From: a phage
Reading direction: 5' to 3' (one strand)
Length of the DNA stretch: 64,000 nt
Sequence record: PZ154895.1
Below, in pieces: positions 40,055 through 43,895 of the stretch. Position 1 is the first letter of the stretch; every line of letters starts with the position of its first letter. The notes beneath the pieces are model-generated. The model was not told the origin of the DNA. It made no database searches and saw only the letters and a program-made list of their open reading frames with translations. Made by a program: the position numbers and the translations under genes.

Positions 40055-40751
<697 letters not shown>

Positions 40752-40754
40752 TTT

Positions 40755-40797
40755 CACAAAGTTGTTTACATGCTGATGAGGTAGTGATACTATTACC
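40755..40797 (+). promoter_or_regulatory. T4-type early promoter (-35 GTTTAC 40764-40769, extended -10 TGATACTAT)
   Basis: consensus motifs at correct spacing upstream of the CTS gene. Confidence 0.7.
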
Positions 40798-40823
40798 TCA
40801 TCAAAATTAATTAGGAAAATAAA

Positions 40824-41081
40824 ATGAAAACTTTCAAAGAGTTTGCTACAAAAACTACTATCACTGAATCTTCACACGGTATGGAAGTAAAGCTTGGAAT
40901 GGCTTTAGCTGAAGCTGAGCGTCTTTTATCTCGTATTAAAGAACTTGCTGCTGCAGTCGATCCTTCATCTTTTAAAGGAGACCAAACTAAAGTTAAAGCA
41001 CTTTTAGCATTATGCTCCGATGCAGGAGAAATTGCTAAAAATGGTTCTAAGATGAAGAAACGATTAGAAGATTTAAAATAA
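40824..41081 (+). CDS. internal-protein-like, capsid targeting sequence (CTS) bearing protein
   Basis: 85 aa; N-terminus MKTFKEFATK resembles the T4 IP capsid-targeting leader; ipI-locus position next to 57B. Confidence 0.55.
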   Translation: MKTFKEFATKTTITESSHGMEVKLGMALAEAERLLSRIKELAAAVDPSSFKGDQTKVKALLALCSDAGEIAKNGSKMKKRLEDLK

Positions 41082-41084
41082 TTT

Positions 41085-41127
41085 CACAAAGTTGTTTACA
41101 GAAGGGTAGTAGTGTGATACTATTACC
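41085..41127 (+). promoter_or_regulatory. T4-type early promoter (-35 GTTTAC 41094-41099, -10 TGATACTAT)
   Basis: near-duplicate of the promoter at 40755. Confidence 0.7.
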
Positions 41128-41151
41128 CTATCAACTACCGAGGAGAATAAA

Positions 41152-41337
41152 ATGAAACGTTGTGAATTAATTCGAAATGTTGCTATTGCAATTTCTGCTT
41201 CTGCATTTAGCTTTTCAATGTTTGTTGGATTTATATGTGGATTATTAACTACAGCAGAAAATGTGTTTTCACTTGTAGTAGCATTTTTAATTGGTTTAAT
41301 TGCTATCGTTATGGATAAAATTTCTAAAGGTGAATAA
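41152..41337 (+). CDS. small membrane protein (2 predicted TM helices)
   Basis: 61 aa, two long hydrophobic segments; GAGGAG SD. Confidence 0.45.
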   Translation: MKRCELIRNVAIAISASAFSFSMFVGFICGLLTTAENVFSLVVAFLIGLIAIVMDKISKGE

Positions 41338-41738
41338 TGAACGTTGAATACTATGTATATGCGGATTACGAAAATAATCCATCTAAAGATGAAGATAATC
41401 GTTTAGGTGTAGATGCTTTCGATTCCCCTGCAGCGGCATGGCAATGGGTTGAAAGAACCGATATTCCTTACCGTTATATTGAAGTGGTTGACCACGCAGG
41501 AAACAAGTATCCTAAGGAAGCATATGTTCCTTCCGGGAAGGTAAATTTCCTTTTGTTTGCAGGTGATAATTATTATCCACGTGGTGGGTATACTGATTTA
41601 ATTGCGAAAGCCTCCACTGAAGATGAACTTCGTGACATTATCAAAGAAAATGAAAACAAACCGATGTGTGGTTCTAATCGCTTTGATTGGTGGCAAATTG
41701 TAAATGCCAATACGCACACTATTGTTGATGAAGGTTGA
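41337..41738 (+). CDS. hypothetical protein
   Basis: 133-aa ORF, TAATG overlap with upstream ORF. Confidence 0.5.
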   Translation: MNVEYYVYADYENNPSKDEDNRLGVDAFDSPAAAWQWVERTDIPYRYIEVVDHAGNKYPKEAYVPSGKVNFLLFAGDNYYPRGGYTDLIAKASTEDELRDIIKENENKPMCGSNRFDWWQIVNANTHTIVDEG

Positions 41739-42028
41739 TAATGATTCTTTATGCGAAAGTATCATCCATTGAAAATGGATATAAATATGATCAAGAAGCA
41801 GCTAAAGCCTTGATTGATGATTATGGCATTTTAACATATTTTGAAGTTGAAAAGGTTTACATTGACCGTTCATCTTCTCAAGTTAAATTAGTGAAGGAAG
41901 ATCGTAAATTTAATACAGTAAATTTTGATTTCTTTATTGAAACAGAAAAAGGTCCTCTTGAATATGATATTTTCAAGAATCCTTTGGGTCTTGAATGCAT
42001 CGTAAATATGTATTATCATAAATGGTAA
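41735..42028 (+). CDS. hypothetical protein
   Basis: 97-aa ORF overlapping upstream stop. Confidence 0.5.
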   Translation: MIMILYAKVSSIENGYKYDQEAAKALIDDYGILTYFEVEKVYIDRSSSQVKLVKEDRKFNTVNFDFFIETEKGPLEYDIFKNPLGLECIVNMYYHKW

Positions 42029-42125
42029 ATATGCTTTAAGAATTATTTGTTATTATTAACTCATATCGCACTGATTAATACCCTCTATCATCAAGGGTTC
42101 TTGCTTAAGAGCCTTTGTTAATAAT

Positions 42126-42198
42126 TGGGAATTAGCCAAGTTGGTAAGGCACTGGATTTTGATTCCAGGATGCAAAGGTTCGAGTCCTTTATTCCCAG
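42126..42198 (+). tRNA. tRNA-Gln (anticodon UUG)
   Basis: manual cloverleaf: 7-bp acceptor tgggaat/attccca, anticodon loop ttTTGat, T-arm GGTTCGAGTCC. Confidence 0.75.
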
Positions 42199-42199
42199 C

Positions 42200-42286
42200 G
42201 CGAGAATGGTCAAATTGGTAAAGGCACAGCACTTAAAATGCTGCGGAATGATTTCCTTGTGGGTTCGAGTCCCACTTCTCGCACCA
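42200..42286 (+). tRNA. tRNA-Leu (anticodon UAA), type II
   Basis: acceptor gcgagaa/ttctcgc + CCA, anticodon loop ctTAAaa, long variable arm. Confidence 0.75.
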
Positions 42287-42291
42287 AATTT

Positions 42292-42365
<74 letters not shown>

Positions 42366-42411
42366 ATTTATGACTCGTCGTGAGACGCTCAGTTCTTTAT
42401 TAGGGACTGAT

Positions 42412-43020
42412 ATGCATTTTTATCTTTATAAAATAACAAATAAAATTAATAATAAAATTTATATTGGTGTGCATTCTACCGAAAATTTAGATGATGGATA
42501 TATGGGTTCTGGTAAATTATTAAAAAGAGCCCAAGACAAGTATGGTATAGAAAATTTTTCTAAAGAAATATTAGAGTATTTTGATGATAAAGAATCTATG
42601 CTTGAAGCCGAGAAAAATATTGTTACAGAAGAGTTTTTAAATAGACCAGATGTGTATAATTTAAAACTTGGCGGTGAAGGTGGATGGGACCACATAAATA
42701 ATTATCCTATGACAGATCAGCAACGCGAATTAATTTCATTGGGTGTTAAAAAGGCACATTCTAACGGAAAATTAAAAGGATGGTCTTCAAATGGATTAAT
42801 GAAGAATGGCTTTGCTGGTAAAACTCATTCTCAAGAAGCTAAACGTAAAATAGCAAAAGCAAACGAAGCAAAAGTTTCTGCGGATGAAAGAAAAAGAAGA
42901 ATAGAAATTTCTAAATTATATGATTTTTCTAAGCGTGGTGAATTATCTAAATATGCTAAGCATATTGGCGTAAGTCATACTCAAGCAAAAAGAATTCTAA
43001 ATCAAATTAACAATATATAA
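42412..43020 (+). CDS. segB: GIY-YIG homing endonuclease SegB (alternative start 42370)
   Basis: GIY-YIG motif HFYLYKITNKINNKIYIGVH; embedded in the tRNA cluster as in T4. Confidence 0.75.
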   Translation: MHFYLYKITNKINNKIYIGVHSTENLDDGYMGSGKLLKRAQDKYGIENFSKEILEYFDDKESMLEAEKNIVTEEFLNRPDVYNLKLGGEGGWDHINNYPMTDQQRELISLGVKKAHSNGKLKGWSSNGLMKNGFAGKTHSQEAKRKIAKANEAKVSADERKRRIEISKLYDFSKRGELSKYAKHIGVSHTQAKRILNQINNI

Positions 43021-43026
43021 ATATTT

Positions 43027-43116
43027 GGAGGCGTGGCAGAGTGGTTTAATGCACCGGTCTTGAAAACCGGCAGTCGCTCCGGCGACTCATAGGTTCAAAT
43101 CCTATCGCCTCCGCCA
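43027..43116 (+). tRNA. tRNA-Ser (anticodon UGA), type II
   Basis: acceptor ggaggcg/cgcctcc + CCA, anticodon loop ctTGAaa, long variable arm. Confidence 0.7.
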
Positions 43117-43544: not shown

Positions 43545-43895
43545 ATGAAAGGTAATGTTTATTTAGTAGTTCATGATTTAACATTCTATTTTAATCACAA
43601 TGACACTGTTATTTCTGAACGTGTAATTAATTTGCTTTATCAGCATGCAGATTATGTTTATGTCGAAAACGAATATGGTCATTGGCAATTTCTCAAAAAT
43701 CGTTCATTTGGTTTAGATGGTTACGAATACTTTGAACGTAAAGACCTTTTAGATAAAATTCCGTTATCTACACAATATCAAAATCATAAGTCTTTACATA
43801 AATGCCGTCAAATTCGAAATGCTGAATCTGCGTATGAAGCAATTGATTTATGGCGTAAACGCCGTGAACAGATTGATGCTTTAAAAGAATACTAA
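43545..43895 (+). CDS. hypothetical protein
   Basis: 116-aa ORF starting 17 nt after tRNA-Arg with GAGGA SD. Confidence 0.5.
   Translation: MKGNVYLVVHDLTFYFNHNDTVISERVINLLYQHADYVYVENEYGHWQFLKNRSFGLDGYEYFERKDLLDKIPLSTQYQNHKSLHKCRQIRNAESAYEAIDLWRKRREQIDALKEY

What the first reader, a model, noticed from the sequence alone, without database searches (positions are those of the whole stretch)
41152..42028. Three translationally coupled ORFs (membrane protein + two soluble proteins) between the CTS gene and the tRNAs
ORFs of 61, 133 and 97 aa are linked by overlapping stop/start codons (TAATG, ATGA) downstream of the early promoter at 41085. The first is a two-helix membrane peptide. The position corresponds to the hyperplastic ipI/tRNA.x region of T-even phages, where gene content is highly variable, so these are likely strain-specific accessory genes.
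Basis: inference. Interest (0 to 1): 0.45.

Follow-up and report, generated by a model that had tools for sequence, protein, structure and literature searches.

The report
Known T4 early genes trna.4, trna.3, trna.2
These three back-to-back small genes are the long-catalogued but still uncharacterised phage T4 early genes trna.4, trna.3 and trna.2; they occur in nearly all T-even phages rather than being strain-specific, and the last one sits beside tRNA genes in several unrelated phage groups, which hints at a tRNA-related job.

Summary
They are orthologues of T4 trna.4 (61 aa, 100% identical), trna.3 (133 aa, 65%) and trna.2 (95 aa from the conserved ATG at 41741, 96%). GenBank has annotated them since 1985 as ORF2-4 of X03016, with the same early promoter. 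All three are under purifying selection (dN/dS 0-0.25). The tight junctions are conserved across genera. In T4 the three are transcribed early, and Trna.2 and Trna.3 are detected as early proteins.

tblastn finds them in 763-805 phage records, which covers essentially every Tequatrovirus, Mosigvirus and Dhakavirus. So 'strain-specific' is wrong. The variable parts of this region are the neighbouring ip genes, the ORFs between trna.2 and the tRNAs, and the allele of trna.3.

No known fold or domain explains any of the three. One new lead came up. The Trna.2 family (Pfam PF27001) lies just upstream of, or inside, tRNA clusters in T4-like, jumbo and N4-like phages. In Vequintavirinae it lies directly upstream of a CCA-adding enzyme. 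This suggests a tRNA-linked function.

Verdict: already known genes, ordinary as a finding, function still open.

The parts
41095..41123 (+). Sigma-70-type early promoter (T4 PE1): TTTACA, 17 nt, TACTAT, with TG extension
   Evidence: Promoter scan. The same element is annotated as PE1 directly upstream of ORF2 in T4 record X03016, and the sequence is conserved in T4.
41103..41129 (+). 12-bp stem-loop overlapping the promoter spacer and -10. It corresponds to the 'potential IpI terminator' of X03016.
   Evidence: RNA fold of 41082-41151: -17.6 kcal/mol, z = -2.5. Annotated as a potential stem-loop in X03016. No T-run follows, and the terminator scan found none.
41152..41337 (+). trna.4: 61-aa two-helix membrane peptide (T4 NP_049748, UniProt P13322; phrog_1692)
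   Evidence: 100% identical to T4. phrog_1692 E 6e-35 over the full length. Hydropathy. dN/dS 0-0.22. Found in 791 phage records. In T4 the transcript is early and the protein was not detected.
41337..41738 (+). trna.3: 133-aa acidic soluble protein with two small alpha/beta domains (T4 NP_049747, P13323; phrog_1411; Pfam PF26894 Phage_T4_Y07C)
   Evidence: 65% identical to T4; the N-half is divergent and the C-half conserved. AF2 model pLDDT 85. dN/dS 0.04-0.25. Found in 763 records in discrete identity classes. The C-domain family has 565 clusters. Early protein in T4.
41741..42028 (+). trna.2: 95-aa acidic soluble protein (T4 NP_049746, P13324; phrog_2023; Pfam PF27001 Phage_T4_Y07B)
   Evidence: 96% identical to T4. 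dN/dS 0.13-0.47. Found in 805 records. Early protein in T4. Enriched in a DRT1 pull-down. Family-wide link to tRNA genes.
41780..41787 (+). TATAAATA motif inside trna.2, equivalent to the potential late promoter PL2 of X03016
   Evidence: Read from the sequence. The position matches X03016 2911-2918 relative to the ORF4 start. Function not tested here.
42030..42056 (+). Putative MotA-type middle promoter PM2 (TATGCTT box, then TATTAT) between the trna.2 stop and tRNA-Gln
   Evidence: Read from the sequence. The position matches PM2 of X03016 (3161-3167 and 3182-3187). Function not tested here.
42126..42365 (+). tRNA-Gln, tRNA-Leu and tRNA-Gly: the start of the tRNA cluster, downstream on the same strand with no terminator in between
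   Evidence: ARAGORN. No intrinsic terminator in 40700-42400.

Best explanation
The segment is the T4 early transcription unit PE1 -> trna.4 - trna.3 - trna.2, which runs on into the tRNA gene cluster.

Shown:
- The three ORFs are orthologues of the T4 genes.
- They are real protein-coding genes under purifying selection.
- They keep order, position and near-zero intercistronic spacing across several T-even genera.
- In T4 they are transcribed early, and Trna.2 and Trna.3 accumulate as early proteins.

Inferred:
- The host sigma-70 polymerase starts at PE1 right after infection.
- Ribosomes translate the three cistrons in a coupled way. Each start has its own Shine-Dalgarno element inside the end of the preceding ORF.
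- With no terminator, the same transcript continues into the tRNAs, so the three proteins are made together with the phage tRNA precursors.

Proteins:
- Trna.4 is a 6.6-kDa inner-membrane hairpin, with both ends predicted to face the cytoplasm.
- Trna.3 is an acidic two-domain protein. The C-terminal domain is conserved (motif F-L-F-A-G-x-x-Y-Y-P-x-G-G ... D-W-W-Q-I-V) and occurs on its own in many phages. The N-terminal domain is exchanged between lineages as discrete alleles.
- Trna.2 is an acidic 11-kDa protein whose family is physically tied to tRNA genes or tRNA-end enzymes in unrelated phages. I therefore propose that Trna.2 acts on or with tRNA, in maturation, repair or protection of the phage tRNA pool.

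The biochemical activity of all three remains unknown.
For: Identity:
- 100%, 65% and 96% identity to T4 trna.4, trna.3 and trna.2.
- Full-length PHROG matches.
- Same gene order as T4 and as the 1985 record X03016, which annotates ORF2-4, PE1, PL2 and PM2.

Coding and coupling:
- dN/dS is at most 0.25 for informative pairs. Junction gaps are -4 to +2 nt in five genera.

Expression:
- T4 omics classes trna.2 and trna.3 as early RNA and early protein. trna.4 is early RNA with the protein undetected.
- Promoter present and no terminator.

Distribution:
- 763-805 records against the dNMP kinase control.
- Synteny in JK08, JS10, mobillu, PWKp16 and CF-SP2.

Trna.2 link to tRNA:
- 15 of 20 loci from diverse lineages carry a same-strand tRNA gene within about 1.1 kb downstream, 9 of them within 100 nt.
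- These include two N4-like contigs with the virion RNA polymerase (31 nt), jumbo phages XbC2 and BF, Cronus-type phages (2 nt) and Serratia phage 4S (0 nt).
- Three Vequintavirinae loci have no nearby tRNA. There the gene sits directly upstream of a Cca-type CCA-adding enzyme (NF008137 E about 1e-120).
- One contig places it between a macro domain and an Rnl2-type RNA ligase.
- Internal control: two stand-alone relatives of the Trna.3 C-domain, in Ruegeria phage RpAliso and Geobacillus virus E3, have no tRNA within 4 kb.
Against: No function has been shown.
- Pfam, NCBIfam, PADLOC and PDB profile searches give nothing significant for any of the three.
- The Trna.2 model is unreliable (pLDDT 50).

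The tRNA link is guilt by association only.
- tRNA regions of large phages are insertion-prone.
- The T4-like loci share ancestry.
- A Trna.2-plus-tRNA-Asn cassette could have moved as a unit.
- One 4.5-kb contig shows no tRNA context.
- Trna.2 is acidic (pI 4.9), which is atypical for an RNA-binding protein.

Other gaps.
- Coupled translation and read-through into the tRNAs are inferred from sequence, not measured here.
- Trna.4 protein has not been detected in T4 proteomics.
Confidence: 0.8

Rival explanations
1. The three proteins are early host-takeover or counter-defence factors with no connection to tRNA. They would simply lie in an anti-defence neighbourhood: Acb1 and the internal head protein upstream, phage tRNAs downstream.
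For: - The window's 57B is Acb1 (PF23474, E 3e-60), and the next gene is an internal head protein (phrog_3499).
- Expression is early.
- Trna.2 was one of only two T4 proteins enriched with active DRT1 relative to an RT-dead control (PMC13275509).
- The Trna.3 N-domain is swapped between lineages as discrete alleles. Window versus T4 gives dS about 1.07, while the flanking genes give about 0.10. The window N-domain is nearly identical to that of Dhakavirus JS10. This pattern is common for proteins that meet variable host targets.
- An Acb2/Tad1-like gene lies near the Trna.2 homologue in jumbo-type contigs.
Against: - No similarity to any described anti-defence protein was found.
- The DRT1 authors did not follow up the pull-down.
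- This reading does not explain why Trna.2 homologues sit next to tRNAs in N4-like and jumbo phages and next to the CCA-adding enzyme in Vequintavirinae.
- The two readings overlap if the target is a tRNA-directed defence.
Confidence: 0.35
2. One reading: strain-specific accessory genes of a hyperplastic region, present in this phage and few others.
For: The surrounding interval does vary.
- Relatives carry one or two different ip genes.
- Zero to two extra ORFs lie between trna.2 and the tRNAs.
- The tRNA sets differ between genomes.
Against: - The ORFs are identical or near-identical to T4's own genes.
- They are found in 763-805 records.
- Synteny holds across at least five genera.
Confidence: 0.03
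3. The ORFs matter mainly in cis, as a translated leader that keeps transcription going into the untranslated tRNA cluster. Under this reading the protein sequences are of little importance.
For: - The ORFs lie on the same strand directly upstream of the tRNAs with no terminator.
- Trna.2-family genes end 0-97 nt before a tRNA in many phages.
Against: - Purifying selection acts on the amino-acid sequences.
- Motifs are conserved at 27-40% identity across unrelated phage families.
- Trna.2 and Trna.3 accumulate as proteins in T4.
- A separate middle promoter lies between trna.2 and the tRNAs.
- Vequintavirinae homologues are not next to tRNAs.
Confidence: 0.05
4. The three products form one membrane-anchored complex, with Trna.4 as the anchor. 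The coupling would then serve to fix their stoichiometry.
For: - Stop/start spacing is tight and conserved.
- The three genes co-occur in nearly the same set of genomes.
- N4-like contigs also carry a 57-aa two-helix peptide just upstream of the Trna.2 homologue.
Against: - In Roskildevirus-type genomes trna.2 is separated from the Trna.3-like gene by several tRNAs and ORFs.
- Vequintavirinae and jumbo phages have Trna.2 homologues without detectable Trna.4 or Trna.3 neighbours.
Confidence: 0.12

Closest known systems
Phage T4 trna.4 (NP_049748, UniProt P13322; ORF2 of X03016; phrog_1692)
   Same: Identical 61-aa sequence, the same position after PE1, and the same following gene.
   Different: Nothing at the protein level; 4 synonymous nucleotide differences. 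Function unknown in T4 as well.
Phage T4 trna.3 (NP_049747, P13323; ORF3 of X03016; phrog_1411; Pfam PF26894 Phage_T4_Y07C)
   Same: Same length class, position and two-domain layout. The C-terminal half is highly similar.
   Different: Only 65% identical overall. The window carries a different N-domain allele, 92-97% identical to that of phages such as WG01, JS10/IME08 and JK08.
Phage T4 trna.2 (NP_049746, P13324; ORF4 of X03016; phrog_2023; Pfam PF27001 Phage_T4_Y07B)
   Same: 96% identical, the same position 97 nt before tRNA-Gln, and the same internal TATAAATA motif.
   Different: Four amino-acid changes. No function has been assigned to the family. The T4 protein co-purified with DRT1.
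Stand-alone 'YYPxGG ... WWQIV' small phage proteins (phrog_17649, phrog_4811, phrog_5638 and 565 clusters at 50% identity)
   Same: They share the whole C-terminal domain of Trna.3, including the invariant F, G, Y, GG, D and W positions.
   Different: They are 60-80 aa single-domain proteins, sometimes fused to an HTH domain. They occur in phages of Gram-positive and marine hosts and are not near tRNAs. All are uncharacterised.

Membership tests
T4 trna.4 / phrog_1692 | Full-length sequence match to the family | tested here: met
   100% identity to T4 NP_049748 over 61 aa. phrog_1692 E 6e-35, residues 1-61 of 61.
T4 trna.4 / phrog_1692 | Position directly downstream of the early promoter PE1 and upstream of trna.3 | tested here: met
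T4 trna.3 / phrog_1411 / Pfam PF26894 (Phage_T4_Y07C) | Full-length sequence match to the family | tested here: met
   phrog_1411 E 8e-56, residues 4-133. 65% identity to T4. All close relatives carry precomputed PF26894. The family name appears. PF26894 is absent from the local Pfam copy, so it was not scored directly.
T4 trna.2 / phrog_2023 / Pfam PF27001 (Phage_T4_Y07B) | Full-length sequence match to the family | tested here: met
   phrog_2023 E 8e-48, residues 1-95 of 95. 96% identity to T4. Relatives carry PF27001. The model is not in the local Pfam copy.
Small two-helix inner-membrane phage peptides (topological class, not a homology family) | Two hydrophobic segments of about 17-23 residues, a short loop and charged termini | tested here: met
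   Kyte-Doolittle windows above 1.6 span residues 10-58 with a dip at TTAEN. Termini are MKRCELIR and DKISKGE. Membrane insertion itself cannot be tested here.
Variable-content ('hyperplastic') genes of T-even phages | Patchy presence/absence among closely related genomes | tested here: not met
   791, 763 and 805 records carry the three genes, against 504 + 182 records with dNMP kinase at 60% identity or more. The three are syntenic in five genera. Only the allele of trna.3 varies.
Known tRNA-binding, tRNA-processing or RNA-repair protein families | Recognisable domain or fold of such a family in Trna.2 | tested here: not met
   No Pfam, NCBIfam or PDB-profile hit was significant. The best were TusC E 0.055 and DUF5092 E 0.049, and neither is shared by other family members. 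A fold comparison was not possible because the model has pLDDT 50.
Known anti-phage defence proteins (PADLOC) | Match to a defence-system model | tested here: not met
   No hit at E up to 1 for any of the three. PADLOC holds defence proteins, not counter-defence proteins, so anti-defence families were not tested directly.

The most novel reading that the evidence does not exclude
Trna.2 (Pfam PF27001) is a dedicated phage tRNA factor. It would be a small acidic protein, co-expressed with phage tRNAs, that assists their end maturation or CCA repair, or shields the phage tRNA pool from tRNA-directed nucleases, for example as a decoy or inhibitor. This would explain its placement beside tRNA genes in T4-like, jumbo and N4-like phages, and beside a CCA-adding enzyme, a macro domain and an Rnl2 ligase elsewhere.
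Probability: 0.35. Interest if true: 0.6.

Novelty: already known. Interest (0 to 1): 0.22.

Why it matters
As a scan finding it adds little. The genes have been in GenBank since 1985, have Pfam and PHROG families named after them, and are conserved rather than strain-specific.

The residual value lies in the open question of what they do. T4 still has many early genes without a function, and this trio sits between two proven counter-defence genes and the phage tRNAs. The cross-lineage linkage of the Trna.2 family to tRNA genes and to a CCA-adding enzyme gives a concrete and cheap hypothesis to test. It bears on why phages carry tRNA clusters and how those tRNAs survive host tRNA decay and tRNA-targeting immunity. 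The discrete allele swapping of the Trna.3 N-domain marks that protein as a likely point of contact with a variable partner.

Tried and rejected
- **Domain searches.** Pfam, NCBIfam and PADLOC scans of the three proteins gave nothing significant. Scanning 47 Trna.2-family members one by one found no family shared by more than two members.
- **PDB profile searches.** Alignments A4, A5 and A8 gave no hit below E = 1.
- **Trna.2 structure.** The model is poor (pLDDT 50), so no fold search was run.
- **Internal duplication in Trna.3.** Pairwise alignment of the two halves is at chance level (z 0.09). The N-half profile against the close C-half profile gives nothing. Against the broad C-domain family it gives 59% probability and P 9e-5 over 50 in-register columns. 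This is suggestive only and is not claimed.
- **Trna.2 related to the Trna.3 domain.** Rejected.
- **Trna.3 C-domain family linked to tRNAs.** Rejected, because the two non-T4-like loci examined have no tRNA.
- **P0207.** This 2031-aa protein with nine partial matches looks like low-complexity repeats and was dropped.
- **The search for related loci.** Runs with alignments A6 and A8 failed for lack of a conserved stretch.
- **Literature.** No paper assigns a function to trna.3 or trna.4. The 2003 T4 genome review is not held.

Full report
**What is there.** The window interval 41152-42028 holds three same-strand ORFs with almost no spacing.
- ORF 1 runs 41152-41337 (61 aa).
- ORF 2 runs 41337-41738 (133 aa).
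- ORF 3 ends at 42028.

The second junction is GGT TGA TA ATG. The stop TGA lies at 41736-41738 and the conserved ATG at 41741. So there is a 2-nt spacer, not an ATGA overlap. The 97-aa length comes from a TTG at 41735, which is not conserved in relatives. The annotated product is 95 aa.

Each start is preceded by a Shine-Dalgarno-like element. A sigma-70-type promoter with a TG extension lies at 41095-41123 (TTTACA, 17 nt, TACTAT). No intrinsic terminator lies between 40700 and 42400. tRNA-Gln starts 97 nt after the third stop.

**Identity.** The surrounding genes are dNMP kinase (gene 1), gp57A, 57B, a short internal head protein with an MKTFKEF... leader, and then the tRNAs. This is the T4 gene order. 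The three ORFs align with T4 as follows:

| Window ORF | T4 gene | Identity |
|---|---|---|
| 41152-41337 | trna.4 | 100% |
| 41337-41738 | trna.3 | 65% |
| 41741-42028 | trna.2 | 96% |

They give full-length matches to phrog_1692, phrog_1411 and phrog_2023, all of unknown function. Relatives carry the Pfam families PF26894 (Phage_T4_Y07C) and PF27001 (Phage_T4_Y07B).

GenBank record X03016 for the T4 tRNA region already lists them as ORF2, ORF3 and ORF4. It also lists an early promoter PE1 directly upstream, a potential stem-loop overlapping PE1, a potential late promoter inside ORF4, and a middle promoter PM2 between ORF4 and tRNA-Gln. All of these sequence elements are present in the window:
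- PE1 at 41095-41123;
- a 12-bp hairpin at 41103-41129, which folds at z = -2.5;
- TATAAATA at 41780-41787;
- TATGCTT ... TATTAT at 42030-42056.

**Are they genes?** Yes. I compared the window with T4, JK08, JS10, mobillu and PWKp16 by Nei-Gojobori counts. Wherever dS was informative, dN/dS was 0-0.22 for trna.4, 0.04-0.25 for trna.3 and 0.13-0.18 for trna.2. The one outlier is 0.47, based on only six substitutions. The window and T4 copies of trna.4 differ by four synonymous and no non-synonymous changes. The junction spacing stays between -4 and +2 nt in Tequatrovirus, Dhakavirus and Mosigvirus.

In T4 itself, time-resolved RNA-seq and proteomics class trna.2 and trna.3 as early RNA and early protein. 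trna.4 is early RNA, and its 6.6-kDa product was not detected (PMC9697503).

**Distribution.** tblastn against 50,697 phage records gives these counts:

| Query | Records with a match |
|---|---|
| trna.4 | 791 |
| trna.3 | 763 |
| trna.2 | 805 |
| dNMP kinase (control) | 1639 in all; 504 at 90% or more; 182 at 60-80% |

So the trio is present in essentially all Tequatrovirus and its sister genera. It extends into Dhakavirus, Marfavirus, Gelderlandvirus and others, always between 57B/ip and the tRNAs. It is absent from roughly half of the wider T4-like set.

What does vary is:
- the ip gene or genes upstream;
- the zero to two ORFs between trna.2 and the tRNAs;
- the tRNA set itself.

**trna.3 is a mosaic.** Its identity histogram is discontinuous: 174 records at 90-99%, one at 80-90%, and 348 at 60-80%. 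Between the window and T4, trna.3 has dS about 1.07 and dN 0.27, while the flanking trna.4 and trna.2 have dS about 0.10. Conversely, the window's N-terminal half is nearly identical to that of Dhakavirus JS10 (dS 0.23, dN 0.006), although JS10's trna.4 and trna.2 are far more diverged. So the trna.3 allele, and its N-terminal domain in particular, has been exchanged between lineages.

**Trna.3 structure.** The AlphaFold model (pLDDT 85, pTM 0.49) shows two small beta-beta-alpha-beta(-beta) domains.
- BFVD returns only uncharacterised phage proteins.
- A profile search of 1.84 billion representatives shows that the C-terminal domain is a widespread stand-alone 60-80-aa phage protein: 565 clusters at E of 0.001 or better.
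- That family has invariant F, G, Y, GG, D and W positions.
- It appears as an extra ORF in Marfavirus and as a C-domain-only gene in Gelderlandvirus.

A distant relationship between the N- and C-domains is possible but weak.

**Trna.2 and tRNAs.** Sequence methods find nothing for Trna.2, and its model is unreliable. Its genomic company, however, is consistent. Using tblastn hits and the third protein-database search, I collected 20 loci and measured the distance to the nearest same-strand tRNA.

| Lineage | Context of the Trna.2 homologue |
|---|---|
| Tequatrovirus | 97 nt before the first tRNA |
| Serratia phage 4S | 0 nt before tRNA-Leu |
| Cronus-type phages | inside the cluster, 2 nt before tRNA-Lys |
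| Jumbo phages XbC2 and BF, and related contigs | inside the tRNA cluster |
| Two N4-like contigs with the giant virion RNA polymerase | 31 nt before tRNA-Asn |
| Three Vequintavirinae loci | no tRNA nearby; immediately upstream of a full-length Cca-type CCA addition/repair enzyme (in one case separated by a homing endonuclease and one small ORF) |
| One unassigned contig | between a macro-domain protein and an Rnl2-type RNA ligase |
| One 4.5-kb contig | no such context |

A rough prior helps to weigh this. Only about 1-2 genes in a hundred directly flank a tRNA cluster in such genomes. Recurrence in at least three unrelated lineages is therefore unlikely to be chance. I have not run a formal genome-wide control, and co-transfer of a gene-plus-tRNA cassette is an alternative explanation.

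A 2026 study found Trna.2, together with Inh, as the only T4 proteins enriched with active DRT1 relative to an RT-dead control. The authors did not pursue it (PMC13275509).

**Trna.4.** Hydropathy gives two helices, roughly residues 10-32 and 38-54. They are separated by TTAEN and flanked by MKRCELIR and DKISKGE. This fits a hairpin with both ends in the cytoplasm. The protein is identical in 429 records. Nothing else is known. N4-like contigs have an unrelated 57-aa two-helix peptide just before their Trna.2 homologue. This may be coincidence.

**Conclusion.** The finding is a correct description of a known, conserved T-even early gene trio, with minor coordinate and junction errors. The interpretation 'strain-specific' is refuted.

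Mechanism, as far as the evidence goes:
- Transcription is immediate-early from PE1.
- The three cistrons are translated in a coupled way.
- The transcript reads through into the tRNA cluster.

Trna.2 and Trna.3 are verified as early proteins in T4. The biochemical roles are unknown. The best-supported inference is a tRNA-linked role for Trna.2. The main rival is a tRNA-independent counter-defence role for the whole trio. Novelty of the object itself: none.

Noticed in passing
window 42370-43020 (+), between tRNA-Gly (42292-42365) and tRNA-Ser (43027-43116): A 216-aa GIY-YIG homing-endonuclease gene sits where T4 and JK08 have tRNA-Pro, and the whole 64-kb window has no tRNA-Pro. Its first ~115 residues are 83% identical to T4 SegB, but the C-terminal (DNA-binding) part is unrelated. 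T4 segB lies elsewhere in the cluster, between tRNA-Ile and tRNA-Arg.
   Followed up: partly
window 40824-41081 (+): The ipI slot holds an 85-aa internal head protein of a different type from T4 IPI (phrog_3499; called ip5 in phage JK08). Close relatives carry a second gene (ip6) that this window lacks. This is the genuinely variable part of the region.
   Followed up: partly
window 41337-41738; loci L003, L001: The trna.3 allele has been exchanged between lineages. The window's N-terminal half is almost identical to Dhakavirus JS10 (dS 0.23), while the same gene is at dS ~1.07 from T4. The flanking genes show the opposite pattern.
   Followed up: partly
window 41535-41735; L005 2687-2872; L010 3001-3213: The C-terminal domain of Trna.3 (FxLFAGxxYYPxGG ... 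DWWQIV) is a very widespread stand-alone small phage protein, with 565 clusters. Marfavirus has an extra copy inserted between trna.4 and trna.3, and Gelderlandvirus has a C-domain-only gene in the slot. No function is known.
   Followed up: partly
L013 6001-7554, L021 6001-7556, L012 2501-4835: In Vequintavirinae (PVP-SE1, a Mydovirus and a related contig) the Trna.2 homologue is directly upstream of a full-length Cca-type CCA addition/repair enzyme. In the Mydovirus an HNH-type endonuclease ORF and an 88-aa ORF are inserted between them.
   Followed up: partly
L018 5706-6385 and L019 355-1037 (N4-like contigs): A 57-aa, extremely hydrophobic two-helix peptide lies just upstream of the Trna.2 homologue, and tRNA-Asn starts 31 nt after it. 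The layout echoes trna.4 ... trna.2 ... tRNA in T4, without sequence similarity in the peptide.
   Followed up: no
L020 2940-6088: On an unassigned 7.5-kb phage contig the Trna.2 homologue overlaps the end of a macro-domain ORF (PF01661, E 1.9e-4, just under the cut-off). It lies four genes upstream of an Rnl2-type RNA ligase.
   Followed up: partly
window 40765-40793 and 41095-41123: Two near-identical early-promoter-like sites (TTTACA, 17 nt, TACTAT, TG-extended) precede the ip gene and trna.4. They match PE2 and PE1 of the T4 record. A 12-bp hairpin (41103-41129) overlaps the second one.
   Followed up: partly
window 43545-43895 (+): The 116-aa ORF immediately after tRNA-Arg has no Pfam match. 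T4 has the stable RNAs rnaD and rnaC at this position instead. This was not examined further.
   Followed up: no
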